In this document: positions 5,869 through 52,200 of the stretch, one piece after another
How positions within the stretch are numbered: the stretch's first letter is position 1
How the letters are laid out: the number at the start of each line of letters is the position of its first letter
Source: Eukaryota sp. GEM-RC1
Lineage: Eukaryota
Assembly (NCBI GenBank): GCA_040285855.1
Contig: JAUFOQ010000017.1
Coordinates: 744,001 to 808,000 of the forward strand
DNA: 64,000 nucleotides
Direction: 5' to 3'
Notes under the pieces: model-generated
Database searches by the model: none
What the model saw: the letters and a program-made list of their open reading frames with translations, nothing else
Told to the model about the DNA's origin: nothing
Program-made: the position numbers and the translations under genes

Positions 5869-6791
5869 CAGGGATCGAAAAAATATATTGCAATATATTT
5901 CTAGCATAAAAAATGTACAATAAATATATTGGAAAATGTGATCATTGCAATAAATATATTGGAAACTGAGATGATTGCAATAAATAATTGCAATATATTG
6001 CAATATTTTGGGTAAAAATTTGGTTCGTGAAAATGTAAGAAATTGAGACGTCCTGCTGACTGAAAATCAACCACTACTAGAACGTCAGCGCTTTTAGTCG
6101 GTTACCCTTTCAGATACATGCATAAGAACATTAATTATACTTCTTAACGTACTGTAAATCTTGACACCGCTTCTGATCATAATGGACGCTCACACTTCAC
6201 AACCCATCTTTCTACTTTGCTCTTCTGTTGGTATCAATACTTATTTACTTCAATGGTTCCTATGATGTGATGTACACACGTGTTTGAACTTTTTAGCGAT
6301 TCGTCACGTACGTATACCACGTTTATTACAGTCCCACCTACTACATGATAAGACTTCCCGCTTCCTGGTACAGACTCTGGGCAGGGATCGAAAAAAATAA
6401 ATTGTGTTGCTGGGTGCCACTATGATTGGAACGTGTCTTTATTGATACGTAAACAAACACATGTACCAGTTTCCACAAATCTCATTGCTTGAAGTATGTG
6501 CTGAGTGATGACAATAGAGATATAGAAACCAACTGTAGGTCCCCTTTTAACTTTTTTTGGACTTGGAGTGGATATACAGTGAAAGAAAGTGTTCTTATGA
6601 ACAAGACTTGTTAGCGTTACTCTGCAGAAATTTCGTTGTGACATATTGCAATATATTGGAAATATATTGCAATATATTGCAATAAACCCTGTGTTGCAAT
6701 AAATATATTGCGCATCAAAAGACGTGCAATATTAATTGCAATATTATTTATTTCAATATATTGCAATACAATTTATTTTTTTCGATCCCTG
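5869..6791. mobile_element. non-autonomous hAT element (MITE)
   Basis: TIRs CAGGGATCGAAAAAAATA; perfect 8-bp TSD GAAGAAGC at 5861-5868 and 6792-6799; subterminal ATTGCAATA repeats. Confidence 0.9.
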
Positions 6792-12908: not shown

Positions 12909-13697
12909 CTACTCAATATCATAATCCTTGTCTTTCACATCCATGTCATCAAAATACTGTGTCACTAAATCCACTTGCAACAACAAGTCCGAAAGTGATT
13001 CATCTTCATTATAATTCAGTGGAGTAAATGCAACAACATCATTCTCTTCCAGTAACTCAGCAATTCTCAAGTTCAAAGTTTTAAATTTTCCAGCAACCTG
13101 GGTGTCAAGGCGTCTAAAAAGGTTGACATTCCCAGGACTTATATCATTAAGCAGCTCCTTGTTCCCAACTAAGTCGCACTTAGTTAAGACGTTGACATGA
13201 GGGAGAGAGAACTGGTACATCGTTGACAAACACGCGAGGAAACCAGATATGAATCTAGCGGGATCTATCACAGTTATGGCTTCTAGACAATAGACTCCTA
13301 CTAGTGTGTATCTCCAGTTCTGGAAGGTCTGAGTGAGGTTCCTCATCATGGGCACGTTGGTGTACAATTCAACCTGTCCTGGACAATCAATTAAGAGGTA
13401 GTCATCGTCAAAGTCGCCAAGCTGTTCTTCTAGCCAGTCAAGATTGTTCAGAAGATATTCCATACAAAAAACGAGACCGCCATTAGGTCCATAGTCTAGT
13501 TCTTCCATGCAGTCTTCTAGGGAAATGAGCTGTCGTATATCAAAAGTGGGCGAATAGGGAAGATATTCTGCAGCAGGGTCTAAGTTGACAATGTGTAAAG
13601 AACGGCCAGTTGTACGGAAGTGCTCAGCCATTTGATGACAATATGTGCTCTTACCACTACCAGCTGGTCCAACAACAAATTGGGCTATTTTTCCCAT
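12909..13697 (-). CDS. GPN3: GPN-loop GTPase 3
   Basis: MGKIAQFVVGPAGSGKSTYC P-loop, VNLDPAAE, GPNGGL, DCPGQVELY, VLTKCDL; likely ATG at 13697. Confidence 0.9.
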   Translation of the reverse strand: MGKIAQFVVGPAGSGKSTYCHQMAEHFRTTGRSLHIVNLDPAAEYLPYSPTFDIRQLISLEDCMEELDYGPNGGLVFCMEYLLNNLDWLEEQLGDFDDDYLLIDCPGQVELYTNVPMMRNLTQTFQNWRYTLVGVYCLEAITVIDPARFISGFLACLSTMYQFSLPHVNVLTKCDLVGNKELLNDISPGNVNLFRRLDTQVAGKFKTLNLRIAELLEENDVVAFTPLNYNEDESLSDLLLQVDLVTQYFDDMDVKDKDYDIE

Positions 13698-14082
13698 GAG
13701 TAACTGGAAAGGAATTAGAGAAAATTCAGGTTTTCTCTTAATTTTATTACCAGACCCAATCTCTTGCACAAACATACATCTTAAACAATGGTTTCTATCT
13801 AGTCTACGGTTCTGAGCAAGACTTGAGCTTGTGATGTTAGTTTCCACACTTCCCAGCCATTTGATGACAATATGTGCTCTTACCACTACCAGCTGGTCCA
13901 ACAACAAATTGGGCTATTTTTCCCATGAGTAACTGGAAAGGAATTAGAGAAAATTCAGGTTTTCTCTTAATTTTATTACCAGACCCAATCTCTTGCACAA
14001 ACATACATCTTAAACAATGGTTTCTATCTGGTCTACGGTTCTGAGCAAGACTTGAGCTTGTGATGTTAGTTTCCACACTTCC
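13625..14082. repeat. 229-bp tandem duplication covering the GPN3 5' end and upstream region
   Basis: 13625-13853 is repeated at 13854-14082 with one visible substitution. Confidence 0.9.
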
Positions 14083-15097
14083 CTCATATACTCAAACACT
14101 TACCGTGTCATTCTTTCTTGCAGTTACACTTAAGTCTTCTGGGACCTGATCTTCCATTATCAGAATCATTTGCAATTCCATTCTTGGTTTTTTTGGACTA
14201 TCTAAAGTGAACTGCCTGGAAACGTATGTCTCACTTGATGGTGATCAGATCTTCCTGTTGAGCACAACGTTGTTTATGTTAGAAACTTCAAACAATGTCT
14301 TTCGTATCATTCATTCCCTCCTCCTGATTCTAGGATGGAATCGACTCCCCACAGTTCTGATAGATTGACAGTGTTTGAACTTTTACGATTGTAAAACAAA
14401 ACCATTTCTGTTTCAAATAAAGTTTTCTGTTCTCATTGCACTATTGCTCGACTACGGATAAGATGTGACTGTCAAACTCTGATTGTTCAAGAACAATATC
14501 GTTTGTGGGTGCCTCAATACAGTACTCAAATATAATCTCTAGAGATGGTCTTCCAATAATTCAAAAGTTTGAGCATCCATAAGATTAGCTGGAGGTATAT
14601 AATCGATTTCATCAAACATCTACAGGCATGAAGTTTATTGAAGTCAAAAGGTACATGATAAATCAATTTTATGGTACACGATAAGCTAGAGTCAAATCCG
14701 AAAGTGCACACCCCAACACGTGTTGGATATTGCATTCTTCTATGTCGCTTCAGTGAATTTGTATAAATTTCTACTCTTCTTGATAAAACTATATTGAATA
14801 AAGGTAGAAAATTCAAGTTTACTTAAATGTATGGATTATTGATGAGCTCTTCATGTTATCAGTTCTGGAATCATTGAAAATGAGTTGCAATTTATCAACT
14901 TGGTTCGGCTGTAACTTGCGTGAAAAATAGATGTGTTTTTCTGTCGGTTGATCTCAAGGTGAGTTATTCTGTTCGGCTGCTCAGAATTTATCCAACGCGT
15001 GTTGAATATTTTGCAACACCGTGTTGAACCGAATTATGTTGGTAATCTAAAATTACTAATCTCTCATACTTGCCAATCATAAAGAATGCAAAAAATG

Positions 15098-15169
15098 TGG
15101 GGCCACGAGGAATCGAACCACGATCTTGCAGATCTGGAATCTGATGCCCTACCATTGGACCATGGCCCC
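15098..15169 (-). tRNA. tRNA-Trp(CCA)
   Basis: Reverse complement GGGGCCA-TG-GTCC-AATGGTA-GGGC-A-TCAGA-TTCCAGA-TCTGC-AAGAT-CGTGG-TTCGATT-CCTCG-TGGCCCC-A. Confidence 0.92.
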
Positions 15170-15484
15170 ATTCTTGTGTTGCATATTTCAGCTCTGTTAT
15201 TATTGCTTCTAAGGCCCCATCTTGCAGATACACAATCTGACATGACTACATCTAGTATTCTGGTCATGTCCTCATATACTTTCTGTATTCTAAATCTTTG
15301 AATCGATTTGTTCAACGATTAATTCAATCAAGGTCCGTGGTAGTTAGACGAACACGTGCAGAACACGTGACGCGGCTTTAATCTTGTATCCAATATCTAT
15401 TAGATGATTTCTAATTGAATACTACAACCATAGCTACAGTCGTATAGACTACTGTAGAGTGTGGGAAAAGGATACCAAAATTCA

Positions 15485-15549
15485 AATTTTTAAATATATT
15501 TTTAATTACCTATATGTAACGTAAATAAATAAAAATATATTTAAAAATT
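15485..15549. repeat. perfect 20-bp inverted repeat
   Basis: AATTTTTAAATATATTTTTA (15485-15504) and its reverse complement (15530-15549). Confidence 0.85.
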
Positions 15550-15873
15550 CAAATTTTCAGGCGATTTGAGACATTTAGAGAGTCATCATGTGGACATGTA
15601 CTAGCATTGATTTCTCTGATTGATTAATGACTGGATATCAATTTAGCACATAATTGAGTGATTGTGATAGTACACGACAGAATTTCCAAAATTTCAAAAT
15701 TGATTGAACATTAAGTTATCAATTGTTTTGTGCATGTGTGTTTGTACTAATAGATGTACAGTCTCTGTGATCAACAGACAAGACACCTCTCAATACAAGG
15801 CAAGTGGCTCATCGTAATGTAATGACAATTGAACAAGATGACATGATGATGACAAGTTGTCATTCTTGTCATC

Positions 15874-15884
15874 ATATATAAATA
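15874..15884 (+). promoter_or_regulatory. TATA-box-like motif upstream of the Fanzor transcript
   Basis: ATATATAAATA about 25 nt before the first 117-bp repeat. Confidence 0.35.
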
Positions 15885-15905
15885 GTGGAGACATTACTCG
15901 TATAT

Positions 15906-16223
15906 CTTTCACCCCCTTTGCACTCATCATAACCACAAGGTTATGCAAGCGACACCAAAGGTATTAAGTTACCTACGGTCGAGCTTCTGTTCCTCCTTTT
16001 CCTTCCCTAAGCTTCGTTGTTCTTTTCACCCCCTTTGCACTCATCATAACCACAAGGTTATGCAAGCGACACCAAAGGTATTAAGTTACCTACGGTCGAG
16101 CTTTTTCTTCCTCCTTTTCCTTCCCTAAGCTTCGTTGTTCTTTTCAACCCCTTTGCACTCATCAAAACCACAAGGTTATGCAAGCGACACCAAAGGTATT
16201 AAGTTACCCACGGTCGAGCTTCT
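15906..16223 (+). repeat. 117/118-bp direct tandem repeat, ~2.7 copies
   Basis: ATGCAAGCGACACC recurs at 15943, 16060 and 16178; internal hairpins CATAACC/GGTTATG and AGGTA/TACCT. Confidence 0.95.
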
Positions 16224-19200
16224 ATTATTTTTGCTATTCTGATAAATATGGTCTTCTGTTGTGTTCTGTTTTATTTTGTTGGATTTCCAGTTGTGATATT
16301 TTTGCATCGATCCCCATATCCCTTCATGTGTTAATAAATCAACAATCGTCACAGTTTTGTCATGACCTAACCACGGATGGAGACATAGAGTCCAATCCAG
16401 GACCTCCTCTTACAGATGACCTTAGAGATGAGCAACTGAGACCCGTTTTTGCACCAAACGTAGACAATATCGAGACGTTAAAGCCCAACGTCTGGGTTAA
16501 TGATGATGTCATCGACTTATACGGTGATTTTCTTACAAAAAGCAGCAAATGTTGTCAGTACTTTCCAATGAATGACATGCTTGGTGCTTCTGGTGTTTAT
16601 GATTTTCAACTATTGTTAAAAAATTCGAATACCTAATAAAATTAATGAATAATTGTGTTCCGAAGAAACGATTCATATTCATGCCAATCAACGATGGCCT
16701 TTTCGGTAAAACTCCGACTCATTGGACACTTCTAATTTGCGATATTAAGATCAGACGACTTTTTTCAATCGATTCAACGTATACTGAAGAGGAACACTTC
16801 AAACAACTGGCGAATACAATTCGAACTTCTCGCAATGAAACAGTAATCCAAAAATTACAGCAAGATTTGTTTAATGACGCACAGTATTTGTACATGGATA
16901 AACTAGTTGTAAAGCAAGAGCAAACTGAAAACGATTGTGGACCTTTTATTCTGATGTACATTCAAAAGTTTGTTACCTTAACAGACTCATCTATTGATTG
17001 TTCATCTATCGATTTTAAAGGAATTTTAACCAAACTTGTAATTAGCCAAGACTATGATGCTCTAAAAATGAGGAAAGAAGTTCTGACTCATATTATGACT
17101 ACTCAATCAGCAGAGAGGGCTGAACGTGCTAGAGAAATCTTAAACAAATACTTTTCAGTTCATTCGACACCTTCTCAACAACGTCGTAAGCCTAAAAAAC
17201 CAGATGCAAGAAAGAAAAAAGGTCCTAAAACTAAACAACCGGCCAAAAAAAGAAAGAAGACTGCTAATACTTCTGATTTATCTGAACCTTCTACACTGAT
17301 GTCATCTACTCATGAAATTCCAGACCCTAACAAACTGACAAAAACTCAATTACAAGAGGTTTCAGAAGCAATCAAATCGTTGTCATCTGAAGAATCGATT
17401 GCAGAAGAATGTGTCAATTGGTACTCTCGTCATTTGATGGACATATACAAAGTTGATTTCAATGCCTTTGTAACTTCTGGATCTATTCAATCATATTTAG
17501 TTGATGAAACCCGATCTCCCCACGAGTTTTTCATGAACAAGATGCTTGCGACAGATTCTAGATATCTTTTTCTTCCAATAAATGATGCAATGACTGGTTT
17601 ACATTGGGGTTTGATTGTAATTGATAAAAATGATCTACAAGTGATATTTCTCGATCCTCTTTATGATGCTGAAATTCACAGACAGGATGTTGATAAAAAT
17701 TTAAATGAAATTGACTCTTATTTGAATCAAGATATTTCAAAAATACATGAAATTCTTCATCAACTCCAGTTTCAGCTCATTATTGTCCCAGTGCCACAGA
17801 AACAAACAACAAATGATTGTGGAGTATACGTTCTTCAGTATATGCGCGGACTTATAGAACTTCTAACTTCAAACCAATTCACAGATCAATCTCTTCTCCA
17901 TGCTGCTGATAGAATGATACAACAACCTATCAATACTAGGGAGAGTAGACAAGAAATAAAAGTGTACCTTCAATCTCTACAACCTCCTACAAGTAGAAAC
18001 CGCATATCTGGACAAACCAAAATTAAGCGAACACGCAAATATCCGGTGAAAAAAACTGACAAAGTTGCTCAAAAAAAGTCAAAAAGGACTATACGTAAGC
18101 CCAGTGATTCTGATATAGGAGTTCCAAATGTGACTCATAAAGAATTTCTAAATAGTTTACCCGGTGAATTGTCTAACCGACAAAAGAGACGTCGTTTGAA
18201 GTTGCACATGATACAACAAGCACTTCAAGAAGCTGAAGAATTGTTTCAGGATTCTTTGATTCGTCCAAAGTTAGAGACCTTAGCTCCAATAGATTTGACA
18301 ACTCCTAAAATAAACGTTGCTGCTTGTGAGAAAACTGAAACCACAAAGACAACAGCTAAGAGTACAACAAAAGTTGGCAAATCCAAAAAGTTTACAACCA
18401 AACCAAAAGCAAGTGGTAAAACTAATGCTACCAAGAGTCTTAAACCTCCTAAGAAACAAATGATTGACTTTCATTGTAATTCTGAATTACCAGAAGACTC
18501 TAACTCTTGTTCAATATTGTCGTTTGATATTGAAACAAGAGAAGTTGATCAATTGCCTGTTAAGAAACTTACGAAGAGGTTGAATGAACAAAGACAAGAA
18601 CAAAATGAAGTTTTAAAAAACCAAAGTGATTCAGAAAGAGAAGTTTGGATTGAAAAGCATCAAGTGTTTATGATTTCTGGAGTTTTCGGTCATTTTATTA
18701 AGGATGAGTTTTACCTTCAAGAAAGCTTTGTTGCGACTTCAGAAGAATCAACTTTCTTTTCAGAGGGTGAAAATCCAACTGATTGCCATAGCCTTTTCTT
18801 CTTTGAAGACGAAAAACAGTTACTAGAGTTTTTGTCAACTATTTGACTGATAAAAATCCATCTGTTTTAAGTGGATTTAACATTACTAATTTTGATAATG
18901 TTGTTCTAGACAAAAGAATTGATGCATTTGGAATAGACTTTCCAGAACCAATGCTAGATGATACGACAAAATCACATTTGTCACCTTTATGGCAACGTGT
19001 TTGTACTGAATGGGCTGGTAGAACTGTATGTGATTCTTACCTCTATGCTAAACAATTCATTGCTACAAAATGTTCAAGGTCACTAAGTTGGTTTTTATTA
19101 AATGAATCTAAAGGACGTCTTCATGACAAATTTGAACACTTATTGCCTATTGATTGTGTTAGTAGACGACCTCAAGAAGTTCTAAACTATTGTTTCAAAG

Positions 19201-21362
19201 ACAGTGTACTAGCATTGAAGTTGTTTTTATTATTTCAATCAAATAAAATAGTTCGTCCCACTTTTGTAACACATAAGACTACACTGAAGTCTATTGTAAA
19301 ACATACAGGACTGGAATTATTGTTGAATTATTATGCTCTATTGGTTCATAAACTACGAATGCACACTTCTTATTGTTTAAAGCTGTTTTTATTGCATTTA
19401 AATAAGAATGAGCTTGAACTACCATTAATTACAAGGACAGAGGTTGAACACATTCAAACGTTGCTGAAGGAAATCTCTGCTGATCGTCATAAGATTAAAC
19501 TAAACAATGGAAATCCGACAATTAATGACGACTTGAGAAAATTTGTTACAAATCAATACAAACAAGTAATGATGGACAATGGTGGTATTCCAAATTTTCC
19601 AGCTGCATATTCGCCACGACTTATGGCAATGGTAGGTGAAACAATCAAAACAAATTTGAACACCAACATTAAAATGCGATATCCTCAGTACATTGACAAA
19701 TTTATTAATGTTTGGTTTGAAAAGAATAGTGTTGAAGAAGAAATGTCGAAAAAAGAAAAGTCTGTATTTCGTTGGAGATTGAGACAAGTAAAAGATGTTT
19801 TCCTTCAAAGGAATAGAAATGATATTCCAACGACCACTGAAGAAATACAGCAGTTTATTGAACAATGTGATACCATAATACTTGAAGATGACAGTGAGAA
19901 TAGCTTAAGTAGAGAAGATAAAATTGAACTTTTAGGGCAAAGCCACGACACTGTTCTAGAACTATTTGCAGATAGAGTTTGTATTGATATCCTCTTCCCA
20001 TCAACAATTAAAATTCAACAGTCAAATGGTGATTATGAAGACAAACAGATTGATTCTCTAATGAAAGCAGTACATGAACATCCACAATCGTTCATTAAAT
20101 CAGCCATACAAATATATAACTTTCTTGAAGAGGATGAAGCCAGTACTTACAATGTAATTCCAATTGTTCGACACGTGATTCCAGGCTTCTTTGGAAGTAG
20201 ATACACAAGGTCTTTGGGGAATATTACGTTCCACATTAACCAATCATCAGGTTAAAGAAAAACAAGGAAGATCTGAGTGGAATTCAATTGAGGAAATTAA
20301 GCACATGTCTCCTGCTGAACAAAATCAATTCTGGTCGTACTTTTTCAATTTTAATCGTCCATTTATAAAGAAAGGCTATAAGTTTAACAATTCTATTAAA
20401 ACTGATGGTTTCTCTGCTTGTGTTGAACTTACCAGAGAGGACTGTGTGGGAATGTCATTTAAACCAGATAGTGCAAAGTTCTCCAGTACTGATGAATATG
20501 TTCAAGACTATGATATTGAAGAGTTTACATTGAAAAGAAAAGTTTACATTGATCCTGGCAAGAACGATTTACTCTACTTCTGCTCAGAAAAAATAAGAAA
20601 GCCTGAAGATTTAGCCCGTGAAGTACGAAACAAAGAATACGAGTGGCTAAGATTGACAGAGACAGAATGGTCGAGATTGTCCAGAGTCCATCAAAAGTTT
20701 AGAAGGGGAAAGAAAAAAGAATTTATTCTCCGAGATGAAAAAACGGTTGAACAAGAAGAGTCAACATTGTCCAAAGAAAATTCAAAGTCGACCGTTTATG
20801 AAACCTTCTATGACTATGTGGGTTCCAAACTTACAGTTATTGAATCAACATTTGATTACTACTGTTTGATGATATGGCGCATTCAAAAATGCAAAGATAT
20901 GTCCATATTCAAAAAACAGAAAGTAAGTTGTTGAAAAATATGACTGCAAAAGGATGGAATAAGAATGACCGTGTATTGATGTTTGGTGACAATGGTAATA
21001 AGAGGCAGAACCTAAAACACCTCCGATCAAGTAGAGGTGTGATGTGGAGAAACTTCTTTAAGAGAAATGGTTACAATATTGTTCTCGTAGATGAGAGTTA
21101 CACATCTTCAAAGTGTCCCACTTGTTGGGGGCCAGTTAAAGTGTTTATGGAAGTTGACAATCCTAGACCCAAGACACAAGAAGAGAAGCCTATGGTGAAG
21201 TTACATGCGTTGTTGAGATGTCAGTCTGAGAAGTGCAGAGAAGAATGTGATGACAAAGACAAAGTGTGGAATCGTAACAAGTTAGCATGTATCAACATCA
21301 AAGCTATTGTGGAGCATCATTTGGAGCGGGGTCTAGGAGTTAGACCCAGTTATTTGTCATAG
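16178..21362 (+). CDS. polyprotein: 2A peptide - 2x Ulp1/SENP (C48) protease - PolB-type 3'-5' exonuclease - Fanzor1 (TnpB-like RuvC nuclease); four 1-nt frameshifts
   Basis: Five consecutive ORFs join by single-base shifts in short homopolymers (~16605, ~18830, ~20192, ~20888) into continuous motifs. 2A: DIESNPGP. Protease 1: WVNDDVID/HWTL/IDS/NDCG. Protease 2: FLPIN/HWGL/FLDP/NDCG. Exonuclease: FDIET/GFNITNFD/YCFKD. Fanzor1: P.F.EVDT..L, FNNSIKTDG, YIDPG, FGD, VDESYTSSKCPTC, LLRC...C, WNRN.LA..NI, RP.YL. Confidence 0.88.
16364..16405 (+). other. 2A (StopGo) ribosome-skipping peptide DLTTDGDIESNPGP
   Basis: Exact D(V/I)ExNPGP consensus in frame with ORF 16178. Confidence 0.9.
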
Positions 21363-21421
21363 TCATAGTCTTAATTTACTACGTGAATTCGTAGTTATCT
21401 GAGTATTATACTCACAAAGCT
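21302..21421 (+). ncRNA. candidate Fanzor omegaRNA scaffold
   Basis: Stem-loops GGGTCTA/TAGACCC (21329-21347), ACTACG/CGTAGT (21378-21395) and TGAGTA/TACTCA (21400-21414) overlap and follow the Fanzor stop, the position typical of TnpB/Fanzor omegaRNAs. Confidence 0.55.
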
Positions 21422-21425
21422 CTAT

Positions 21426-24400
21426 ATGACTCCCTCTTCACCATCTAGACAACACCTTCAGTCACTTCTTCGTCTTATAGAGAATGATCAAGTTCCTTCT
21501 CTAGATTTACGGTTCTATGATCTTTCTAGTTCATTTCTGTATAGTTTAAGTGGCTTATTACCTTCTGTCCAGAATCTTCTGACAATTGATCTTTGGAGTT
21601 GTTCAATTGGTGCTTCAGGGTTAGCCATACTTGCCCCTAGTTTACCCCCCTAATCTTGAATCTATTGATTTAGGGGATAATGGTGTTGGAGATTCCGGAT
21701 TGTCGACGTTACTCACATCTCTTACTTCGACCGCATCTCCACCTCCCCTACGTGCTCTTCTTCTTGCTCAAAATCACATAACAGACGCAGGTGCTGCCAC
21801 ATTAGCTGGTATTCTCAAAGCTGTACCTACTCTACGACGCCTGGACCTTCGTGATAACAGTGTTCATAATACAGGAGCCTCTCATTTGGCTACTGCTCTA
21901 GAAACTTCCAACCTCATCTATCTTTCACTCTTCCACAATCCAATTTCAGACGCGGGTGCCAAATCCCTCCTCGCCTCACTTCGACGTAACAACTCCCTCA
22001 AAACCCTTGATCTTCGTCTTACTCTAGTCCAAGACTCCTCCATACTAACCCAGATCTTTCAATCAACACTGGAGACCCAAAGGAGATCCCTTGATGAAAC
22101 TCCTTTTCTACGTCGAAAGTCAGCTTCTATTTCTCCAAAACGTGTTGACCGTCATCAAACTGAGCTCCTTTCTATAAGAAAGAATTCTTCTACTTCCAAG
22201 GGTTATGCTACCTTACCAAAACCTTTCAAAATTTCTTCAACGGACCATTCTCCATTGAATACAAAGAGTTTTGGAAAGAAAGTTGTTGATAGATTTGTTG
22301 AATTTGAGACTCCGCCGCATCGTCGTCTTGTCAAGGAACCGGAAGAATTACCAGAAACACCTGCAAATAGTTTTGCATATAACTTTTCTAATTCAGAAAC
22401 GGAAAGTGGTGACGTGGTGATGGTGAGAGATGACGACGTGATTGACTGGGATGATTCTCTGGAACAGTTAGTTGATACGGTTGAACATGAGCAAGTTCTT
22501 TCTGATGTTTTATCAAGAGAAGCTCAAGTTTCAGAAAAGGAAAGTGTTTTAGCTGAACGCGAACAACAATTGGCTGATGTTTTATCAAGAGAAGCTCAAG
22601 TTTCAGAAAAGGAAAGTGTTTTAGCTGAACGCGAACAACAATTGGCTGATGTTTTATCAAGAGAAGCTCAAGTTTCAGAAAAGGAAAGTGTTTTAGCTGA
22701 ACGCGAACAACAATTGGCTGATGTTTTATCAAGAGAAGCTCAAGTTTCAGAAAAGGAAAGTGTTTTAGCTGAACGCGAACAACAATTGGCTGATGTTTTA
22801 TCAAGAGAAGCTCAAGTTTCAGAAAAGGAAAGTGTTTTAGCTGAACGCGAACAACAATTGGCTGATGTTTTATCAAGAGAAGCTCAAGTTTTAGAATTGG
22901 AAAATCTATTTGCTGAACGCGAAGAATCACTTTCAGAAAAGGAATCGGATCTTTTATCAAGAGAAGCTCAAGTTTCAGAAAAGGAAAGTCTATTAGCTGA
23001 ACGGGAAGAATCACTTTCAGAAAAGGAAAGTTTAATATCTGAACGCGAAGAATCACTATCAGAAAAGGAATCAGATCTTTTATCAAGAGAAGCTCAAGTT
23101 TCAGAAAAGGAAAGTCTATTAGCTGAACGGGAAGAATCACTATCAGAAAGGAATCAGATCTCTTTTCAAGAGAAGCTCAAGTTTCAGAAAAGGAAAGTCT
23201 ATTAGCTGAACGGGAAGAATCACTATCAGAAAAGGAATCAGATCTCTTTTCAAGAGAAGCTCAAGTTTCAGAAAAGGAAAGTTTAATTTTTGGGCGTGAA
23301 GAATCACTATCAGAAAAGGAATCAGATCTTTTATCAAGAGAAGCTCAAGTTTCAGAAAAGGAAAGTCTATTAGCTGAACGGGAAGAATCACTTTCAGAAA
23401 AGGAATCAGATCTCCTGTCAAGAGAAGCTCAAGTTTCAGAAACGGAAAGTCTATTAGCTGAACGGGAAGAATCACTATCAGAAAAGGAATCAGATCTCCT
23501 GTCAAGAGAAGCTCAAGTTTCAGAAAAGGAAAGCCTATTTGCTGAACGGGAAGAATCACTATCAGAAAAGGAATCAGATCTCTTTTCAAGAGAAGCTCAA
23601 GTTTCAGAAAAGGAAAGTCTATTAGCTGAACGGGAAGAATCACTATCAGAAAAGGAATCAGATCTCTTTTCAAGAGAAGCTCAAGTTTCAGAAAAGGAAA
23701 GTTTAATTTTTGGGCGTGAAGAATCACTATCAGAAAAGGAATCAGATCTTTTATCAAGAGAAGCTCAAGTTTCAGAAAAGGAAAGTCTATTAGCTGAACG
23801 GGAAGAATCACTATCAGAAAAGGAATCAGATCTCTTTTCAAGAGAAGCTCAAGTTTCAGAAAAGGAAAGTCTATTAGCTGAACGGGAAGAATCACTATCA
23901 GAAAAGGAATCAGATCTCTTTTCAAGAGAAGCTCAAGTTTCAGAAAAGGAAAGTTTAATTTTTGGGCGTGAAGAATCACTATCAGAAAAGGAATCAGATC
24001 TTTTATCAAGAGAAGCTCAAGTTTCAGAAAAGGAAAGTCTATTAGCTGAACGGGAAGAATCACTTTCAGAAAAGGAATCAGATCTCCTGTCAAGAGAAGC
24101 TCAAGTTTCAGAAACGGAAAGTCTATTAGCTGAACGGGAAGAATCACTATCAGAAAAGGAAAGTTTAATTTTTGGGCGTGAAGAATTACTATCAGAAAAG
24201 GAATCAGATCTTTTATCAAGAGAAGCTCAAGTTTCAGAAAAGGAAAGTCTATTAGCTGAACGGGAAGAATCACTTTCAGAAAAGGAATCAGATCTCCTGT
24301 CAAGAGAAGCTCAAGTTTCAGAAACGGAAAGTCTATTAGCTGAACGGGAAGAATCACTATCAGAAAAGGAAAGTTTAATTTTTGGGCGTGAAGAATCACT

Positions 24401-26257
24401 ATCAGAAAAGGAATCAGATCTTTTATCAAGAGAAGCTCAAGTTTCAAAAAGGAAAGTCTATTAGCTGAACGGGAAGAATCACTATCAGAAAAGGAATCAG
24501 ATCTCCTGTCAAGAGAAGCTCAAGTTTCAGAAAAGGAAAGTCTATTAGCTGAACGGGAAGAATCACTATCAGAAAAGGAAAGTTTAATTTTTGGGCGTGA
24601 AGAATCACTATCAGAAAAGGAATCAGATCTTTTATCAAGAGAAGCTCAAGTTTCAGAAAAGGAAAGTCTATTAGCTGAACGGGAAGAATCACTATCAGAA
24701 AAGGAATCAGATCTCCTGTCAAGAGAAGCTCAAGTTTCAGAAAAGGAAAGTCTATTAGCTGAACGGGAAGAATCACTGTCAGAAAAGGAAAGTTTAATTT
24801 TTGGGCGTGAAGAATCACTATCAGAAAAGGAATCAGATCTTTTATCAAGAGAAGCTCAAGTTTCAGAAAAGGAAAGTCTATTAGCTGAACGGGAAGAATC
24901 ACTTTCAGAAAAGGAATCAGATCTCGTGTCAAGAGAAGCTCAAGTTTCAGAAAAGGAACATCTATTTGCTGAACGGGAAAAATCACTTGCTGTCACAGAA
25001 ACGTCACCACAATCAGAAACATGTTCTTGCCTCTATAACCAAGGACATGCTCATGCAGTAACTTTCATTCGAGATTCGATATCTGTTCATTTGGGCGGAA
25101 TTGCTCTGCAAAAGTATACTCTCATTAATGACCAACATATTCTGAATTCTCAACTGTCTTCCTTCGAATTCCAAATCAATGAGCTCAATAATCAATCACT
25201 CCAATTACAATCGTCCTTTGATGAACTCGCTGATCGGGAAAGTGATTTAGACGCACGTGAAGAAGATCTTAATACCAAGGAATTATATTTAATTGAACGA
25301 AGTCGATTTGTCGAGCAATGTAGAATTGAAACCGAAGAAGAACGTACACGTGTCATTTCTGAACGATCGTTCCTAGATGATTTCTCTAAGAAATTGGACG
25401 AGAAGGAGAACAGTATTAACTCTCATCGAAATTCTTGCAACCTTTTTTCTTACCTCTTTAAAATCTAGAGAAAACGCCATTAATGAAAAGTTGTCGTATT
25501 TATCTGATTTAAAAGATGAGGTTGCTGAAAGAGAAGCTGCGGTTACAAAGAAAGAAGAAGATGTTAATTCACTGTTTGTAAAGTTCAAAGATAATTACAA
25601 GAAGTTGTCTATACGTGATGAAAATCTACAGAGTTTTGCTGTCAAGTTGAAGTCACAATCACAATCACTACGTCAACGGTCAGAAATACTTATTCGTCGT
25701 GAGGAACAGGCTCAAATGTTCAAATGTGATGTTGAAACCAAATTTTCTGATGTTGTCAATAAGTACAATATGATATACTCGTTGTATGAATCTTTTAAAA
25801 ATTGTTGCTCTGAAATTCAAAATTTGAACAATTCCCAGATTTACATTTCGCTTCTTCAACCAAATTCTAGTTTCACGGACTTTGTTTCATCTTTTCATTC
25901 CTTCTTCATTAATCAAGCCTCCATTGCTGTAAATCTAACAGAATTGAAATCTAAATTGGAATTTGAACTTCAAAAGACTACCACTAAACAGTCAGAACTT
26001 GATTTGGCCGAGTCCAAAACAAGAAGTGTAATTGCTTCAGTTTTGATCTATCAAATCAACTTAAACAGGTCGACTCTTTCTATAATAGTTCTTATCAGGC
26101 TTCTCCATCAGTTGAGAATTCTCCTCGTGGCAATTTTGAAGATTCTAGCGGGGAATTTTTAAATTTTTCTTTTGATCTAGATGAACGGCAACAAGAACGA
26201 GAAGATTTTCTGAATGAAGTCGAGCAACTCAAAGCATTGCTTAAAAGTTGGCAGTGA
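21426..26257 (+). CDS. LRR + long coiled-coil repeat protein (frameshifted)
   Basis: N-terminal RI-like LRRs (LDLRDNSV...GA..LA.AL), then EREAQV/SEKES heptad repeats and a coiled-coil C-terminus ending LKSWQ-TGA at 26257. Confidence 0.8.
22502..24985 (+). repeat. coding minisatellite: 72-bp unit (about 5 copies), then a 42-bp-unit higher-order array
   Basis: DVLSREAQVSEKESVLAEREQQLA repeats, then SEKESDLLSREAQV / SEKESLLAEREESL / SEKESLIFGREESL units. Confidence 0.95.
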
Positions 26258-26483
26258 TTTTTTTTGAAAAGAATTCATCTTATCCTTTTTGTAAGTTATT
26301 GTTATGTATATTATACTGTAGTTGTATCGATTCGAAATTTGATCATGTGATACTTAGTATTTTCTGTTGGTTGTCAGTTTTCTAGAACTCCTTAAACTAG
26401 TAATATTTAATAAATGCTAACCTGATTCCCACTGTTAATCATTGGACCATTGCGATCTTGAAAAGATCGCCTTGGTTAGATTC

Positions 26484-27070: not shown

Positions 27071-27269
27071 GTCTTCAATGAGTCAGTCTTGTTTTCGGAA
27101 CGAATTCTGGCTATTTCTTCAGTTCTTTCAGATAGTTCGTATTTTCTCACCTAAATTTGTTGAAGATGTTATAGACTTGTTTCTTGTTACTAGTCTTGAT
27201 TCTACTATTACTACGAAATATATCTACATTTTCGAATGTTAAAAATTGACTATATGCCTTGGGTCAAAC

Positions 27270-28022
27270 ATAATAACAAGAAGTTGTCTATACGTGATGA
27301 AAATCTACAGAGTTTTGTTGTCAAGTCGAAGTCACAATCACAATCACTACGTCAACGGTCAGAAATACTTATTCGTCGTGAGGAACAGGCTCAAATGTTC
27401 AAATGTGATGTTGAAACCAAATTTTTGATGTTGTCAATCAGTACAATACGGTATACTCGTTGTATGAATCTTTTAAAAATTGTTGCTCTGAAATTCAAAA
27501 TTTGAACAATTCCCAGATTTACATTTCGCTTCTTCAGCCAAATTCTAGTTTCACGGACTGTGTTTCATCTTTTCATTCCTTCTTCAATAATCAAGCCTCA
27601 ATTGCTGTTAATCTAACAGAATTGAAATCTAAATTGGAATTTGAACTTCAAAAGACTGCCACTAAACAGTCAGAACTTGATTTGGCCGAGTCCAAAACAA
27701 GAAGTGTAATTGCTTCAGTTTTTGATCTATCAAATCAACTTAAACAGGTCGACTCTGGTGGGGAGTTTTATATTTTTCCTTTGATCTAGATGGACGGTAA
27801 CAAGAACGAGTAGATTTCCTAGATGAAGTCGAACAACTCAAAGCATTGCTTATGAGTTGGCAGTGATGACTTTTTTTGAAAAGAATTCATCTTATCTCTT
27901 TTTGTAAGTGATTGTTGTGTATATTATACTGTAGTTGTCTGATCATGTGATATTTAATATTTTTCAGTTATTGTCTCTAAAACTCTTCGAACTTGTAGTA
28001 TATAATAAATGCTAAGCTGATT
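27270..28022 (+). pseudogene. partial duplicate of the 3' end and 3' flank of the LRR/coiled-coil gene
   Basis: Near-identical to ~25592-26428 with substitutions, indels and an internal deletion of about 70 bp. Confidence 0.9.
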
Positions 28023-28214
28023 CATAGAACAATTTGCATCATGAAAACCATAGGTCTCTCTTAGCAAAAGGTATTATCGATATGTATTGTTTAAAGAAAC
28101 ATAAAGACTACATGTAGTTGTGGTAGACACATCGACGCATCTTCTGTATGAGTGTGGGTGCTACAATCAGCGACGTTATCTTCTTTGAGACATTCAAGCG
28201 TATCTTCAAGCAAT

Positions 28215-29260: not shown

Positions 29261-29720
29261 CAGGGATCACCTATAAAAAATGTATAATATATATTATTTA
29301 TTTGTATTATTCTTGTTGTGTGTTTTTCTCCGCACATAAATCCGTTTTTTTAAAAGTTATTGCAATAAATATATCACAATATATTTATTTTTGACAAATC
29401 ATTGAAATCACCGTATCGTATCTATTGCAATTATTTCTGATAATTATTCCCCTCTGTTTTCTGACGTGATTCCATCAAACAATGACATTTTCGTGTTCTT
29501 TGCAAATCTGTTGTATCTCTTCTGCTGAAAATGTTCTTTCTGATGAAAACTTCTTCCATTATTGTGAAGAAAATAAAAATATCTCAAAGCTTTGATTGAA
29601 CAATCGTCTGGTTATGTTGATCTTTTCTTCATACCAGCTGCATCGAACAAAGTTGCACGTCTGTTCTCAAACTTGAAACTTCGGCTTACTGATTGCAGAT
29701 ACAAGCTCCATCCTTCGTGA
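29261..29720 (+). mobile_element. degenerate hAT transposon remnant
   Basis: CAGGGATC end at 29261; DLFFIPAASNKVARLFS..K..LT..R.KL (~29615-29715) resembles the hAT dimerisation motif PasS..vER.FS. Confidence 0.55.
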
Positions 29721-31816: not shown

Positions 31817-31834
31817 TCAACTTCTTAGTTCCAG

Positions 31835-32056
31835 TTTGAAAATTTGTGTTCAGAATTTGGCAAGAAGTTTAACAGAATTTGCTTTTTCGATTTTTAGGTC
31901 TATGTATAGATATGTTGATTCCATTTTGTCCAAGTTGTTTGGAGGCAACTACGTTTCGGAATTAGGTAGTTCGTTTGATAATTTGTTTTAATAGTGTTTA
32001 TTTATTTGTTGTTTTCTTATTATGTGTTTTTCTCCGCACATAAATCCGTTTTTTTT
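31835..32056 (+). mobile_element. 3' tail fragment of a non-LTR (RLE) retrotransposon
   Basis: GAATT.GGTA.TTCGTTTGATA.TTTGTTT is shared with 59988-60020; TGTGTTTTTCTCCGCACATAAATCCG is shared with ~29320. Confidence 0.5.
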
Positions 32057-40249: not shown

Positions 40250-43200
40250 ATGTTTTCTCTAACTGCTTTCCTCATTTTTTTGCCTTCTTTACAGTGTTGC
40301 TGCATTTAATCCTTGCAATTATTGTTCTGATGATACTTCAGATGATGATACACTAGTTCTTCCTCTCATTTTCGAAACTCAGGATCCATCTACCTCAAAC
40401 CTTGTTCTCTGTAATTCTGTTTATGATATTAAAGTCAACACCTTCAGAATCACGGAAAGTCTCCATGTTTGTGCAGCATCAGTAGAACTCATTATTAGCA
40501 GATACAGTTCTGGCGATTATATGATGTGGTCGTCTTCCCTGAGTGCTTTCTTATATCTAGGAAATTCTGACACAGACAATCCCTTTGTTATCCATTCCAA
40601 TGGCAATTCACTAATCTTGCACGGAGCCTTTCCACACTCATTATCACTTACATTCTTGTCTGCTGTAGAAATCAATTTCGACTTTGATCTTTCACATTTC
40701 TCCCTTCAAGTTTTCTTTCTAAAACAAGTCACTATATCTGAGACTCTGACCACCCGTTCCGCTTCTTTCCATGACGTTGTCCTCAAAGGCTCTGGTGAAT
40801 GGCGTTTTTCCAACTACGATATCGCCATAGGAGCTTCACCCAGTATTAGTCACTTTACTGGTCAACCATGTAGAATTGTACATATGAACTCTGCTGATTT
40901 CCACAGATTCCGTGTCCAGTGTCCACTTCTAATATCAGGTACTGGGACTTTAACTGTTAAGGACACTGTTAGCTTTGCTAACCCATCAGATGAACCAAAT
41001 GTATATACCCTTCAAATGGATGGGTCTTCTAATATAAATTTTCCTGCTAGCGTTGTTACGACGTCTAACTTTAAAATTTTTATTAATAGTGTCAACAAGT
41101 TTACATTTACTGGAACTAGCGATAATATTGTAGATCAAGTCAGAATTGAATCAGGAACTTTAGATATTCAATCCAAATTAGTTACATCTTCGTTAGTTTT
41201 TGGTGGCGGAACTATTGTTGGCGATACACTTGAAGTTCGAAATACTCTTGAATCGTCTAGTGTAGATTCTTTAGAGTGTGCACAGTTCAGAGCAACTTCT
41301 CTTGTTCTTTCCTTTTCCAGTAATTTAATTTACGACTATGTTATTGATTTCTCACCTAAGTCTTCACTTGAAATTGCTTCTGGTTTTCAAGTTACATTTA
41401 ATAACCCACAAAATCAGTTTAATTCTGATTTCTTTGATTCATCAACTCTTTCAGTAAAAGGAACTGCAATTATGTCAAACTCTTTTTCTCATATTACTAA
41501 TGTTGAGATATTGGGTGGTAAAATTACTTGTATTGGAGTGGCTGCTTGTCCTGTTCGTCTAGTTTTTACTAGTGGAACAGTGCATGGTGTCTTCCGCCTC
41601 TATTCGCTGATTTACAACGATAACAGTCAAAGCATAACCTTGCATCCTGATACTGAACTTCTTCTTTGGACTTCTGTTGAATCATTTCATTTATATTGTG
41701 AAGCAGCTTGTACAGTATCAGTTGAATCTGAACAGGAAGTAGAATTAACTGGGGATGTCATGATTGAACTGAATGAAGATCATGGTGCTGTAACCTTTGA
41801 TGTTTGTGGGGATCTAGAAATTAATCTGGATAACACTTTAGTGTTGGACAAGCTTTTAGTTAGTGGTACAATTGATATTCAAAGTGATTTACTAATTGTT
41901 AATGATGTGACCCTAGATGAAGGAACAATTACCGGAAATTCACTGGAAATTAAAAATGAAATTTCGTCTTTGGGTTCGTCGGTCTTTTCAGCATTACTTC
42001 TTGTTATTTCAAATACTTTGAATTATAATTCTGTCATTGAGTTCTCTTCCCATTCTTCCTTGGAAATTGCTCATGGTGTTACAGTTACATTTGATAATCC
42101 AAATGAGCAGTTCACTGCCCAGTACTTTGCTTTAACATCTCTTTTAGTAAGGGGAAACGTCATCATGTCTCAATCTTTTTCTCATACTACTAATATTGAA
42201 CTAATGGGTGGTAAAATTACTTGTACCGTGGGTTCTTGTCCTGTTCACTTTGTTGTTCGTAGTGGGACTTTGGATGGTAATTTTTTTATGTACTCATTGA
42301 TTTACACCGATTTTGGTGAAGAACAGTCCACTTTATATTTATCAGATAATTCTGTATTAAATCTCAAAGCTAATCAATTTGTTTCCCTAACTGTTGAATG
42401 TGAATCATTGTGTACTCTTAAAGTTCCAGAAGAATCTACTGTAGAGTTTGTTGATTTTGTTGAGTTTTTGTCTGATTCGACGGATTCTATCTTTATTAAT
42501 GAGGGAATGGCGACTTTTGAGGTAAGTACGTTTAATTCAGAACTAAAATTTGAAAATCATAACGATTTAACTTTCGTCTCCTCCAGTTCAATAAGTTTAG
42601 AGAATTTTAATTTTGTTAAAGGAACTGTTTCTGTAGAATCTGAGTCGTCTTTGCTACTTACTGATTTTACTTGGATTAAAGGAGACTTTTCAGGAGATGT
42701 CACAGTTTCAAACTCCATTACTGCTGTTGGTGCTGAAGTTCGTAGTTTTACTGATGGTACTTTTACCTTGTCTGTTTCTACAGTAGAATCCATGGCTGTT
42801 ACTTTTTCCACATCATCAGTCTTGAAAATTCCCGTAAACAAAAACGTCATCTTTTCCAATTCTATTCAACAGTTCAACGCTGAGTTGTTTAAAGGTCTTC
42901 TAATAGTAGAAGGATCCCTAACTCTACAAGATGATGACGGAGACATCTCCACCATTACGAATTTAGAAGTTCAAAGCACGGGAGACCTGCATTGTGATGA
43001 CTGTGAAATTGATTCATTGACTTGGTCTAAGGGAAAACTTTCTGGACAATTATCACTTTGTTCTGATATAGCTTATGGTGATGATAAGTCTAATTTATAT
43101 ATATTGGATAATTCTCAGCTAACTCTCAAAGCTGTTCAGTTTGTTTCTCTAACAGTTGAGTGTAAATCAATGTGTACTCTTAAAGTTCCAGAAGAATCTA

Positions 43201-49200: not shown

Positions 49201-52200
49201 CGTTCTATAATTACTATATCTCTGCAGTGCAATCTATCATTATTTTACACTCAAATCATGACTCATCAATGTTGTTGAACACAACTTTTTCTGGACCATT
49301 GACTTTGGAAAATTATGGATTTATGACTGTTGGAGATCATATTATGATCCGACAATTCACCAATATTATAAATTTTGCTTCCATCATCACGATATCATCT
49401 ACCAGACTTTTTATCGACACTTCTTCTTTTCTCTTGCTAAATGCTCCACTGATAGTCCACCACCCTTCTGTATTTGAATCATTAGGAGTCTGGATATGTC
49501 CTATTCGTGGACGAGTTCAGGTCGTTAATTCTAATGTTACTTTGAAGGGACATGCTGGAAAGTCTCATTTAGCCACTGAATTTGAATTATTCACTAGTCA
49601 ATTAATTATCACAATGACGGGTTCTCCATTTCTTTTGGTTAATGCTGCGAATTCTGATATTACTTTTGATAGTTATGATTTATTAATTTCCAGTGACTCC
49701 TCTTTTGAAGGGTCTTGTTACGTTATTACTTTTCCCTATTCAAGAGTCCAGTTCTTGGGTGCTTTGCTATGTCAATTGAACTTTTCTCATAGTAATGGAT
49801 TTTTGCACTTTCTTGCTAATTCTGTTGTTCATTTTGATCATGTTACAGTCGATGCTGGTGTTGAATTGATTTTTGAAGGTACTATTTTTGTTGATGAAAT
49901 TGTAGAAAGCGTTCTAAATTCTGGCGACTTACGTTTAAATCAAGTCATGGTCAAAATTTCAACTTTGTCTTCAATAGGAGTAAGATCTTTTGACACAGTT
50001 CTTTCGATATCAAACTCTATCATATCATGTTTTCATGTTGTCTTGAATTCTACCAACTTGTTTGTGTCAAATTCGTCATTTCCTGACGTCATAGAAGAGT
50101 TAATAGTTACAAATTCCAATCTTTCTCTAGTTGATTCTACCGTTTCATTACTAGTTTCAACTTTTGATGATGTGATAATGGATATGACAAACTCATTTCT
50201 TTTTGTTCACGATTTTCTCGGCAATTATTTCACTTTTACTCTCAGAAATTCTTCAATCAGTTTTGATTATCGCAGTATTGTTGATGGTAGTTGTCATTTG
50301 AAATCAGGTATTTATCATTTTATTGGTCATGTTGAACTACAAACTCAAACTCTTAATTTACACTCTGCTACAGTTAATTTCAACAATTTTGTTGTATTTC
50401 CTTTGGAGTTCTTCTTTGATGACCTTTCAAATGATAGCTTGATCGTCTTTCAAGAAGCTGATCACGTCATCAACTCTACAGTAATTACCTTTGCAGCGGT
50501 GACTGTATTTGAATCACCGGTTTCTTTTAAGAATAGTACAATACTTTTCAACCAACAAGTTATCTTCAATTCTAGTATACATATTGAAAATTCTGTTCTA
50601 TTTTTTGAATCATTTGCTTTGTTCACCAGATTTTCAAGTGTTGATGGAGATTGCTATTGGTGTTTAAGGCCTGTTAATGGATCAATTAGTGTTAATGGAA
50701 ATTGGCATTTTTCTAAATTTTGGCTTTTTGACCCTGGTTGTTTCCATTTTACTGAGACTTCTGTGTTTCTGTTTGATGATGTTTCTATTGAAAAAGGACG
50801 TGTTAAATTTGAACAATCACGTGACTTTTGGAAAATTACTACATTGACAGTTATTGGAGGGGAATTGTTATTCTCATCTACTAACTCTCTGAATATTTCA
50901 AATCTGGAATTACGATATGGTATAATTCAATTTTCTGATCTACATAATCTGGAATTAAATTATCTCAGTTTAACTGGTGGTGATATGACATTCTCCAATT
51001 TTTCAACCCCAGTAATAATTAATCAGAACATTTTAAACAATGGTTCTTTTATCACTTTTAATACTGGTTTTTCCGTTATTATTCCATCTCTAAGTGTAAT
51101 TTCTGGAAATATTCACTTTTATGATGTGTATTTTGTTCAAGACGCGTCTCCAACTGAACTGAACATTGTTGATGGCAATTGTTGTTCAACTTTTGACTGT
51201 AAGTTTTCATTACTTGATCAGGCATTTGTACAGAACAATATTCAAATATCGGTTCAGTTCTCCAATGGAGAGCTGATTACTTGGTTCAAAAATGAGACAG
51301 TCACCGATTCATTACACTTTCATTTTGTCAATAATTCTTTCCCAAATATTCGCGTTGATTTAGTAGATGGAGTTACCCAATATTTAATCACTTCAGTGGT
51401 TGTTCCTGTTTGTCCTCCCAAGATTGACTCAATTTCCAGTCCTAAACCAATGGGTGACGTGATTGTGATTAATGGTGATGATTTTGGACATCTGGACGTT
51501 CAAATTATAATCAATTCTTTAAACTTGTCTATATATGTTCTGCCATTTTATCACAAAGTTGTTTACTTCCCAATTCTTCCAAATGATGGATGTCATATTC
51601 TTTCCCTAACTGGTAATGGAATAGTTTCAATAAGTGAACATTTTTGCTATCAAAAGCCAGAAATTCTTAGATTGGACCCTCCAAGTCTGCCGTTTTTAGG
51701 ACATATAACTGTTTACGGTAAGAGTTTTGGCAAATTTAGAATTTCATTATCATTTTTCAATTCCACAGTTTCCTATAGGCTCGTACATACATCTGATACC
51801 GTTTTAGTTGCTGAAATCTTTCATATTTGTACAGAACTTCCTTTTGTTGAGTTCCTTGTCACTGTAGGTGAACAAGATTCTAACCAGCAATTACTACTCT
51901 TAGAAACACCAAATGTTGTTGTTTTTCCTACTTACATTAGCAAATTCAATGGATTATTTTATCTCCAATACCCATCTTTATCTCTTCTCTCAGAATGTTT
52001 ACCGTTCTTTTCTTTGAACTCTCAGGACTCATTCAATATCACTTCCAAAGGAGACAACATTCTAGCAGTAGAAGTTCCTCTGATACAATCTAACGAATAT
52101 TTTAATTTTGGGTTGACATTCGTGAAAAGTAGTAATCTGTCTTCAAAATTTTCCCTATCTATTGCTGGAATTTCTGCTTTACCTATGGATTCTATTTGTT

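What the first reader, a model, noticed from the sequence alone, without database searches (positions are those of the whole stretch)
21302..21445. Candidate omegaRNA whose predicted guide is the start codon region of the adjacent host LRR gene
Seen: three hairpins (21329-21347 inside the ORF, 21378-21395, 21400-21414) and a possible long-range helix AGCTATTGTGGAG (21302-21314) with CTCACAAAGCT (21411-21421). The host ATG is at 21426, 64 nt after the Fanzor stop. Known: omegaRNA scaffolds end at the element right end and use flanking DNA as guide. Inference: the guide is approximately CTATATGACTCCCTCTTCA, which would target the empty allele (homing) or regulate the host gene.
Basis: partly seen in the sequence, partly recalled or inferred. 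Interest (0 to 1): 0.78.

Follow-up and report, generated by a model that had tools for sequence, protein, structure and literature searches.

The report
Likely Fanzor guide RNA at gene start
A jumping element that encodes an RNA-guided DNA cutter (Fanzor), here fused to an exonuclease and two proteases, ends just in front of a host gene, so its predicted guide RNA would be read from that gene's first codons and likely serves to copy the element into element-free versions of this spot, not to regulate the gene.

Summary
Hairpin 3 and the long-range helix share bases and cannot both form. The upstream ORF is a Fanzor1 (closest structures PpFz1 and SpuFz1; D-E-N triad). It is the end of a 2A–Ulp1–Ulp1–PolB-type exonuclease–Fanzor polyprotein from a multicopy, single-lineage clade with no transposase or TIR found. 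The 3' region is predicted to fold like known Fanzor1 omegaRNAs: a 7-bp first stem-loop and a long second stem closing at 21418-21422. The LRR protein is conserved from its first Met in a homologue, so the element ends at or before about 21425. A possible 6-bp direct repeat (15242-15247 / 21426-21431) would shift the guide start to as late as 21432. Both models put the guide in the LRR start region. No RNA data and no DNA of other copies were obtainable, so the end is inferred, not measured. Flank-derived guides are standard Fanzor biology and homing is the likely role. Regulation of the host gene is unlikely: the guide is sense to the mRNA, the nuclease triad is intact, and the neighbour gene is probably incidental. 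The new part is the element's architecture.

The parts
15097..15169 (-). Host tRNA-Trp(CCA); sets the leftmost limit of the element
   Evidence: ARAGORN, Rfam RF00005 E 2.3e-11
15242..15247 (+). Candidate left copy of a 6-bp direct repeat (ATGACT), within an 8-bp-arm hairpin 15239-15270; possible left junction
   Evidence: the 9-mer expected from the homologue's D-M-T codons occurs once in 64 kb on both strands, here; post hoc, roughly p 0.01-0.04 by my estimate
15477..15557 (.). AT-rich palindrome, 32-nt arms, 91% complementary; probably element non-coding DNA
15907..16226 (+). About 2.7 tandem copies of a 117/118-bp unit upstream of the polyprotein
16382..16405 (+). 2A-like motif DIESNPGP (ribosome-skip function recalled, not tested)
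   Evidence: sequence; similar motif in 6 stored relatives
16406..17886 (+). Two Ulp1/C48 protease domains (frame break near 16602)
   Evidence: Pfam PF02902 E 7e-23, 2 stretches
18510..19230 (+). PolB-type (Pol delta-like) 3'-5' exonuclease domain with ExoI/II/III motifs, directly N-terminal to Fanzor (frame break near 18830)
   Evidence: PF03104 E 2.4e-6, E 1e-8 to 3e-17 in relatives; PDB 6s1m E 5e-4 for a relative; Atlas 0.96 for a relative; alignment
19260..21362 (+). Fanzor1 coding region; catalytic D 20551-20553, E 21093-21095, N 21276-21278; frame breaks near 20192 and 20889
21329..21347 (+). Predicted omegaRNA stem-loop 1 (7 bp), within the last 11 codons
   Evidence: 7-bp SL1 in three Fz1 structures (PMC11423790)
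21353..21418 (+). Predicted long stem-loop 2, capped by hairpin 21378-21395; alternative fold with hairpin 21400-21414 and a 21361-21367/21425-21431 closing helix
   Evidence: (z -3.0, 4 of 500 shuffles; 48 of 969 66-nt tiles as stable)
21419..21446 (+). Zone holding the predicted ~15-nt guide (start 21419-21423 in model A, up to 21432 in model B); includes the right copy of the candidate repeat at 21426-21431
   Evidence: inference; not measured
21426..26162 (+). Host LRR / repeat-array gene (several single-base frame breaks; 3' end approximate)
   Evidence: PF13516 E 2e-17; 58 of 75 N-terminal residues identical to P0026 from the first Met

Best explanation
The interval is the 3' end of a Fanzor1-encoding mobile element that sits directly in front of a host LRR gene; its transcript is predicted to fold into an omegaRNA scaffold (about 21324 to 21422-21431) whose guide would be the next ~15 bases, the LRR start region, and the complex would likely cut element-free copies of this site so that repair copies the element back in (homing). 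Shown: Fanzor1 protein, hairpins, host origin of the sequence from the ATG onward, multicopy family. Inferred: transcription and processing of the RNA, the exact right end, the TAM, cleavage, and homing. The guide falls on a start codon because that is where this copy landed. Any effect on the LRR gene would likely be the cis effect of a ~6-kb insertion at its 5' end, not guided regulation. The fused exonuclease may resect the cut and favour recombinational repair (speculative).
For: Family profile hits PpFz1 (7e-33), SpuFz1 (2e-29) and GtFz1; an AlphaFold model of relative P0004 matches the same chains, target-normalised TM up to 0.80. D-E-N triad, as in active GtFz1 (PMC11423790 passages). 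7-bp SL1 plus long SL2 matches the SpuFz1/PpFz1 layout, and overlap with the last codons is known for GtFz1. LRR N-terminus is conserved from Met1 in P0026, so the element cannot extend much past 21425. In a distant Tc1-Fanzor1 family with TIR-defined ends (L002, L003) the last predicted stem closes within about 2 nt of the end, which supports placing the end by the fold (one family only). C-terminal fragments 126, 123 and 116 of 127 residues identical to this copy, and 11 further gene models of the nearest subfamily, are on record, so this copy is one of many. Fanzor guides are 14-15 nt of flank (PMC10432273 section 7; PMC10711439 section 27).
Against: The right end was not observed: no DNA of another copy could be fetched, so there is no covariation and no conservation drop. 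Fold boundaries were chosen post hoc, and the minus strand folds equally well. The UU(G/A)UCG loop I see by eye in SL1 of SpuFz1 and PpFz1 (Table S3) is absent. The last ~20 nt before the ATG look, by eye, like the 5' flank of another host gene, so the end could lie further upstream. The ORF has four frame breaks; three are one base missing from a run, but the one at 20889 is shared by 5 of 5 nearest-subfamily records that reach it and the one at 20192 is not in a long run, so this copy may be dead. No transposase, TIR or significant inverted end match was found. Homing has been shown for TnpB, not for Fanzor (PMC13565253 passages).
Confidence: 0.68

Rival explanations
1. Same omegaRNA, but the element ends earlier (about 21378-21400), giving a short PpFz1-sized scaffold whose guide is host 5' flank and does not reach the start codon.
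For: PpFz1 omegaRNA is only 71-75 nt; counting ~56 nt from just before SL1 ends near 21380. The last 20 nt before the ATG resemble another host gene's 5' flank by eye. An earlier scan note on another genome found a reader-placed end off by 12-15 nt (unchecked).
Against: 21353-21418 folds as one stem (z -3.0, 4 of 500), which random flank would seldom give. Guides starting there would be self-complementary hairpins.
Confidence: 0.14
2. The structure is a relic or chance fold: the element is dead and makes no functional omegaRNA here.
For: Four frame breaks, one shared by 5 of 5 nearest-subfamily records. 48 of 969 66-nt tiles fold as well as SL2. No Rfam match.
Against: Host genes in the window show the same single-base breaks, several at runs. 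34 of 35 more distant family proteins read through that junction in frame. Near-identical copies point to recent spread. Ghost omegaRNAs can work in trans.
Confidence: 0.13
3. The guide has been co-opted to regulate the LRR gene or its paralogues, as TldR-type dead nucleases do.
For: The guide zone covers or abuts the start codon, and a 77%-identical homologue exists.
Against: The guide is the same sense as the mRNA and cannot pair with it. The triad is intact-type across the clade (E 43 of 44, N 43 of 44). From the protein sequence, a guide starting at 21419-21423 has at least two forced mismatches to the homologue's gene. Neither candidate guide has a second close match in the window. The family is multicopy, so the neighbour is probably incidental.
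Confidence: 0.04

Closest known systems
SpuFz1 omegaRNA / Spu-1 element, Spizellomyces punctatus (PMC10432273; PDB 8gkh)
   Same: Fanzor1 fold and motifs; predicted 7-bp SL1, linker, long SL2, then a flank-derived guide; no transposase inside the element
   Different: Spu-1 is 2.1 kb with 30-nt IRs, a single-domain-set protein and D-E-D; here ~6 kb, no TIR found, 2A-Ulp1-Ulp1-exonuclease fusion, D-E-N, and a different SL1 loop
PpFz1 (PDB 9cf0) and GtFz1 (PDB 9cer) (PMC11423790)
   Same: PpFz1 is the best sequence and structure hit; GtFz1 shares the N at the third catalytic site and an omegaRNA overlapping the last codons
   Different: Predicted scaffold of about 100 nt against 75 and 150 nt total; TAM unknown here; no exonuclease or protease fusion mentioned in the passages read
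Crypton elements (PMC3212892)
   Same: No TIRs, 4-6-bp terminal direct repeats, some encode a Ulp1/C48 peptidase; Fanzor-Crypton associations are reported (PMC10530073)
   Different: No tyrosine recombinase here or in 9 relatives scanned; the 6-bp repeat is only a candidate from one locus
TldR RNA-guided repressors (PMC13565253 passage)
   Same: Guide near a gene's 5' end
   Different: TldRs are nuclease-dead and target promoters in trans; this clade keeps a catalytic triad and the guide is its own flank

Membership tests
Fanzor1 | DPG RuvC-I, E six residues before the zinc finger, C4 zinc finger, TDG motif in WED | tested here: met
   YIDPGK, VDESYTSSKC, CPTC/C-C and KTDG in the window pieces; features from PMC10711439 and PMC13565253 passages
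Fanzor1 | Overall fold like SpuFz1/PpFz1/GtFz1 | tested here: met
   Model of relative P0004 (not of the window's broken ORF), Foldseek E 1e-28 to 5e-18 for the three Fz1s against 5e-5 or worse for others
Fanzor1 | Third catalytic residue D (or N as in GtFz1) | tested here: met
   N in the window and 43 of 44 clade sequences, against 4 of 129 others
Fanzor1 | RNA-guided DNA cleavage next to a TAM | not testable with these tools
   needs RNP reconstitution
Fanzor1 omegaRNA | Structured RNA at the ORF 3' end with a 7-bp first stem-loop | tested here: met
   21329-21347; prediction only
Fanzor1 omegaRNA | Scaffold ends in a stem at the element end or TSD | tested here: inconclusive
   Two folds within about 1.5 kcal/mol close at 21418-21422 or 21430-21431; element end not observed
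Fanzor1 omegaRNA | Conserved among copies up to the end, then a variable 14-15-nt tail | not testable with these tools
   No DNA of other copies available
Fanzor1 omegaRNA | Expressed as a small RNA bound by the protein | not testable with these tools
   needs small-RNA-seq or RIP-seq
TIR transposon (Tc1/mariner, Spu-1 type) | Terminal inverted repeats | tested here: not met
   Best inverted match of the right end to 15170-16200 was matched or beaten by 132 of 200 shuffles; none
Crypton | Tyrosine recombinase gene | tested here: not met
   No Pfam hit in the window ORFs or in 9 relatives; frames in 15170-16100 outside the tRNA and repeat are under 60 aa (not scanned)
Crypton | 4-6-bp terminal direct repeats without TIRs | tested here: inconclusive
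   ATGACT at 15242 and 21426, but the 6-mer occurs 24 times on the + strand and ATGAC is locally enriched (9 against 2 expected)
Helitron2 (CRe-type Fanzor carriers) | 5' hairpin and 8-15-bp asymmetric inverted repeats | tested here: inconclusive
   Only 7-mer inverted matches; a hairpin exists at 15239-15270; no RepHel
TldR-like repressor | Inactivated RuvC | tested here: not met
   D-E-N retained

The most novel reading that the evidence does not exclude
A transposase-free, TIR-less Fanzor1 family that inserts at a short ATG-containing core at host start codons, regenerates the start codon through a 6-bp direct repeat that also closes its omegaRNA scaffold, and uses a naturally fused PolB-type 3'-5' exonuclease to resect Fanzor cuts and drive its own copying. 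Every copy's guide would then be the start of a host gene. The exonuclease fusion itself is shown; start-codon targeting rests on one post-hoc junction match at one locus.
Probability: 0.12. Interest if true: 0.78.

Novelty: new variant of a known kind. Interest (0 to 1): 0.45.

Why it matters
The guide-from-flank idea is established Fanzor biology, so the finding as posed is one more likely example. The carrier is more unusual: a clade of Fanzor1 with an asparagine at the third catalytic site throughout, expressed as a 2A–protease–exonuclease–nuclease polyprotein with no transposase found. A natural exonuclease-Fanzor fusion could alter cut ends, as engineered nuclease-exonuclease fusions do (recalled), and would be a candidate editing tool. 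A young multicopy family with a guide in a host start codon would also allow a direct test of the open question of whether Fanzors home in eukaryotes.

Tried and rejected
No whole genome is held. Searches for related DNA: metagenome scan with the window peptide, 0 of 58 candidate stretches confirmed; with the family alignment, 4 of 595, all distant (27-32%); viral scans 0; prokaryote genomes 0. Rfam: nothing in the interval. TIR search: chance level. Second targets of the two candidate guides in the window: none above chance. Rejected: an omegaRNA starting at 21395 with hairpin 3 as SL1, because its scaffold would run through LRR codons conserved in P0026. Rejected as uninterpretable: gene model P0006, which joins a family C-terminus to an unrelated 690-aa sequence; its junction can be read three ways and it has no homologue. 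The exonuclease part of the AlphaFold model was low-confidence (pLDDT under 50 over most of residues 1-245), so domain packing was not read from it. Earlier-findings look-ups by place and sequence were empty. Literature searches listed no paper on a natural exonuclease-Fanzor fusion or on Fanzors in this lineage; I saw listings only (20 of 1,815; 20 of 26; 0; 15 of 128), so absence from print is not established. The supplementary figures of PMC11423790 (too large to read) and the domain survey in fig. S1B of PMC10530073 were not seen and may bear on scaffold comparison and on novelty.
Full report
Observation. The three hairpins are perfect stems at the stated coordinates, the Fanzor stop is at 21360-21362 and the next ATG at 21426, in the same frame, with four stops from 21360 on. 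The long-range helix is possible (11 pairs, two bulges) but shares 21411-21414 with hairpin 3 and is favoured only if the RNA ends at 21421. The recurring prediction is a 7-bp hairpin (21329-21347) followed by a long interrupted stem (21353-21418) capped by hairpin 2; in the 21324-21422 fold a 4-bp helix 21324-21327/21419-21422 closes both. That 99-nt stretch has z -3.49 (0 of 200 shuffles), with boundaries picked after the fact. Less tailored stretches give -2.77 and -1.11, and the opposite strand folds as well. Two of 639 100-nt tiles in the window are as stable in energy. The signal is real but modest, and Rfam has no match.

The upstream gene. Read across four single-base frame breaks, 16382-21362 encodes a 2A-like motif, two Ulp1 domains, a PolB-type exonuclease and a Fanzor. 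Relatives named Eukaryota sp. TZLM3-RCL, TZLM1-RC and GEM-RC1 carry the same layout, some in one frame of up to 1,905 aa. The family profile hits PpFz1, SpuFz1 and GtFz1, and a model of relative P0004 matches the same structures. In a tree of 173 C-terminal regions the 44 family sequences (the window's counted twice) form one clade, support 1.0, with no outsider; 43 of 44 have N at the third catalytic position against 4 of 129 others. N is the active-site residue of GtFz1, and D-to-N raised SpuFz1 activity (PMC11423790, passages). An exonuclease profile hit 18 of 197 stored proteins, all in this family; it resembles the Pol delta proofreading domain. No transposase, recombinase or reverse transcriptase was found in the window element or in 9 relatives; one relative's model begins with a DEAH-type helicase, probably a fused host gene. 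C-terminal fragments 126, 123 and 116 of 127 residues identical to this copy and 11 more gene models of the nearest subfamily are on record: a recently spread multicopy family. I did not determine the origin of the window.

Is this copy alive? Three breaks are one base missing from a T or A run, and host genes in the window show similar single-base breaks, including one in a C run of the LRR gene; the named relatives' assemblies are Nanopore-based with short-read correction (PMC11316075, passages). This favours sequencing error. Against: the break at 20889 is shared by 5 of 5 nearest-subfamily records that reach it, while 34 of 35 more distant ones are in frame, and the break at 20192 is not in a long run. 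Unresolved.

Where does the element end? No DNA of another copy could be obtained, so this is inferred. Upper limit: the LRR protein is 58 of 75 identical to P0026 from the first Met (P0026 starts MD-MTP), so sequence from 21426 on is host. As a check on placing ends by the fold, a distant Tc1-Fanzor1 family with TIRs (L002, L003) has its last predicted stem closing within about 2 nt of the point where the two copies diverge; the third locus, L004, diverges about 15 nt earlier and was not folded. Model B: the 9-mer expected from the homologue's D-M-T codons occurs once in the window on both strands, at 15239-15247, 70 nt from the tRNA-Trp gene. That makes ATGACT a candidate direct repeat at 15242-15247 and 21426-21431. 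Against model B: it is post hoc; ATGAC is enriched in the left zone anyway (9 against 2 expected, top of 512 5-mers, not significant after correction); the base triplet before it does not match the homologue's first Met; and a TAM lying wholly inside a 6-bp repeat would make the element cut itself. I put the chance of the match at roughly 0.01-0.04 before allowing for the search. No TIR was found. Both models place the guide in the first codons of the LRR gene; an earlier end (before 21400) remains a minority rival.

Mechanism. Known: Fanzor omegaRNAs extend 14-15 nt into flanking DNA, which acts as guide (PMC10432273 section 7 and passages); SL1 has 7 bp in three structures and the rest varies; TnpB processes its own mRNA (PMC10278001, abstract); TnpB cuts empty sites and restores the element, which is proposed but not shown for Fanzor (PMC13565253, passages). 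Inferred here: read-through transcription gives a ~110-125-nt RNA; the complex recognises TAM plus guide only where the element is absent, cuts, and repair from the filled allele copies the element. Guided regulation is unlikely: the guide is sense to the mRNA, the triad is intact-type, a model-A guide has at least two forced mismatches to the homologue's gene, and neither candidate guide has a second close match in the window. A cis effect is plausible: the insertion separates the ATG from its original upstream DNA, and trimming a read-through transcript at the guide's end would remove the start codon.

Comparison and novelty. It works like the SpuFz1/PpFz1 system and passes the protein tests for Fanzor1; the RNA passes the one structural test I could run (7-bp SL1, predicted) and lacks the SL1 loop sequence I see by eye in SpuFz1 and PpFz1 (Table S3). 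The carrier fits no transposon class cleanly: no TIR, no tyrosine recombinase, only Crypton-like hints (Ulp1, candidate 6-bp repeat; PMC3212892 passages) and weak Helitron2-like hints (PMC3627910 passages). Fanzor-transposon associations are surveyed in PMC10530073 (passages). Searches listed no paper on this architecture; I saw listings only. The 2A function, and the effect of engineered exonuclease fusions, are recalled. Earlier scan notes on other genomes are unchecked AI notes and were used only as cautions.

Verdict. Likely omegaRNA (about 0.85), guide in the LRR start region given that (about 0.8), homing as the role. Interest 0.45.

Noticed in passing
window 16382-21362: 2A-Ulp1-Ulp1-PolB exonuclease-Fanzor1 polyprotein; in one subfamily (P0184, P0187) the 2A motif lies between the protease and the exonuclease instead
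   Followed up: yes
window 15170-15900: Several DNA hairpins (15239-15270, 15434-15457, 15846-15874), a 32-nt-arm AT-rich palindrome and nine ATGAC/GTCAT motifs; three more lie at 21356-21430. Possible subterminal motif of the element
   Followed up: partly
window 15907-16226: 117/118-bp tandem unit, 95-97% identical, just after a TATA-like sequence at about 15875; fold z -1.68
   Followed up: partly
window 22490-24990: Large array of 21-aa/28-aa EREAQVSEKES-type repeats in the LRR gene, far longer than in homologue P0026
   Followed up: no
window 25585-26428 and 27264-28023: Partial duplication (97% over 494 nt) of the LRR gene's 3' part
   Followed up: no
window 13625-14083: 230-bp tandem duplication (99.6%) at the 5' end of a GPN-loop GTPase (PF03029) gene
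   Followed up: no
window 29294-29351, 31834-32055, 59871-60070: Dispersed non-coding repeat (67-91% identical) near gene 5' ends; possible MITE or shared promoter element
   Followed up: no
window 6644-6768: AT-rich imperfect palindrome with repeated ATTGCAAT motifs
   Followed up: no
window 40263-56244: Very large repetitive (about 765-bp unit) probable surface protein gene, broken by several frame shifts
   Followed up: no
L002 2378-7329, L003 1828-5227: Tc1/mariner-type TIR element with a Fanzor1 gene and a strongly folded 3' end (z -6.05 and -4.86); L002 carries an extra 1.5-kb repeat-containing ORF absent from L003
   Followed up: partly
P0006 (protein only): Gene model joining a family C-terminus to an unrelated 690-aa sequence; another copy may sit just upstream of a host ORF
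   Followed up: partly
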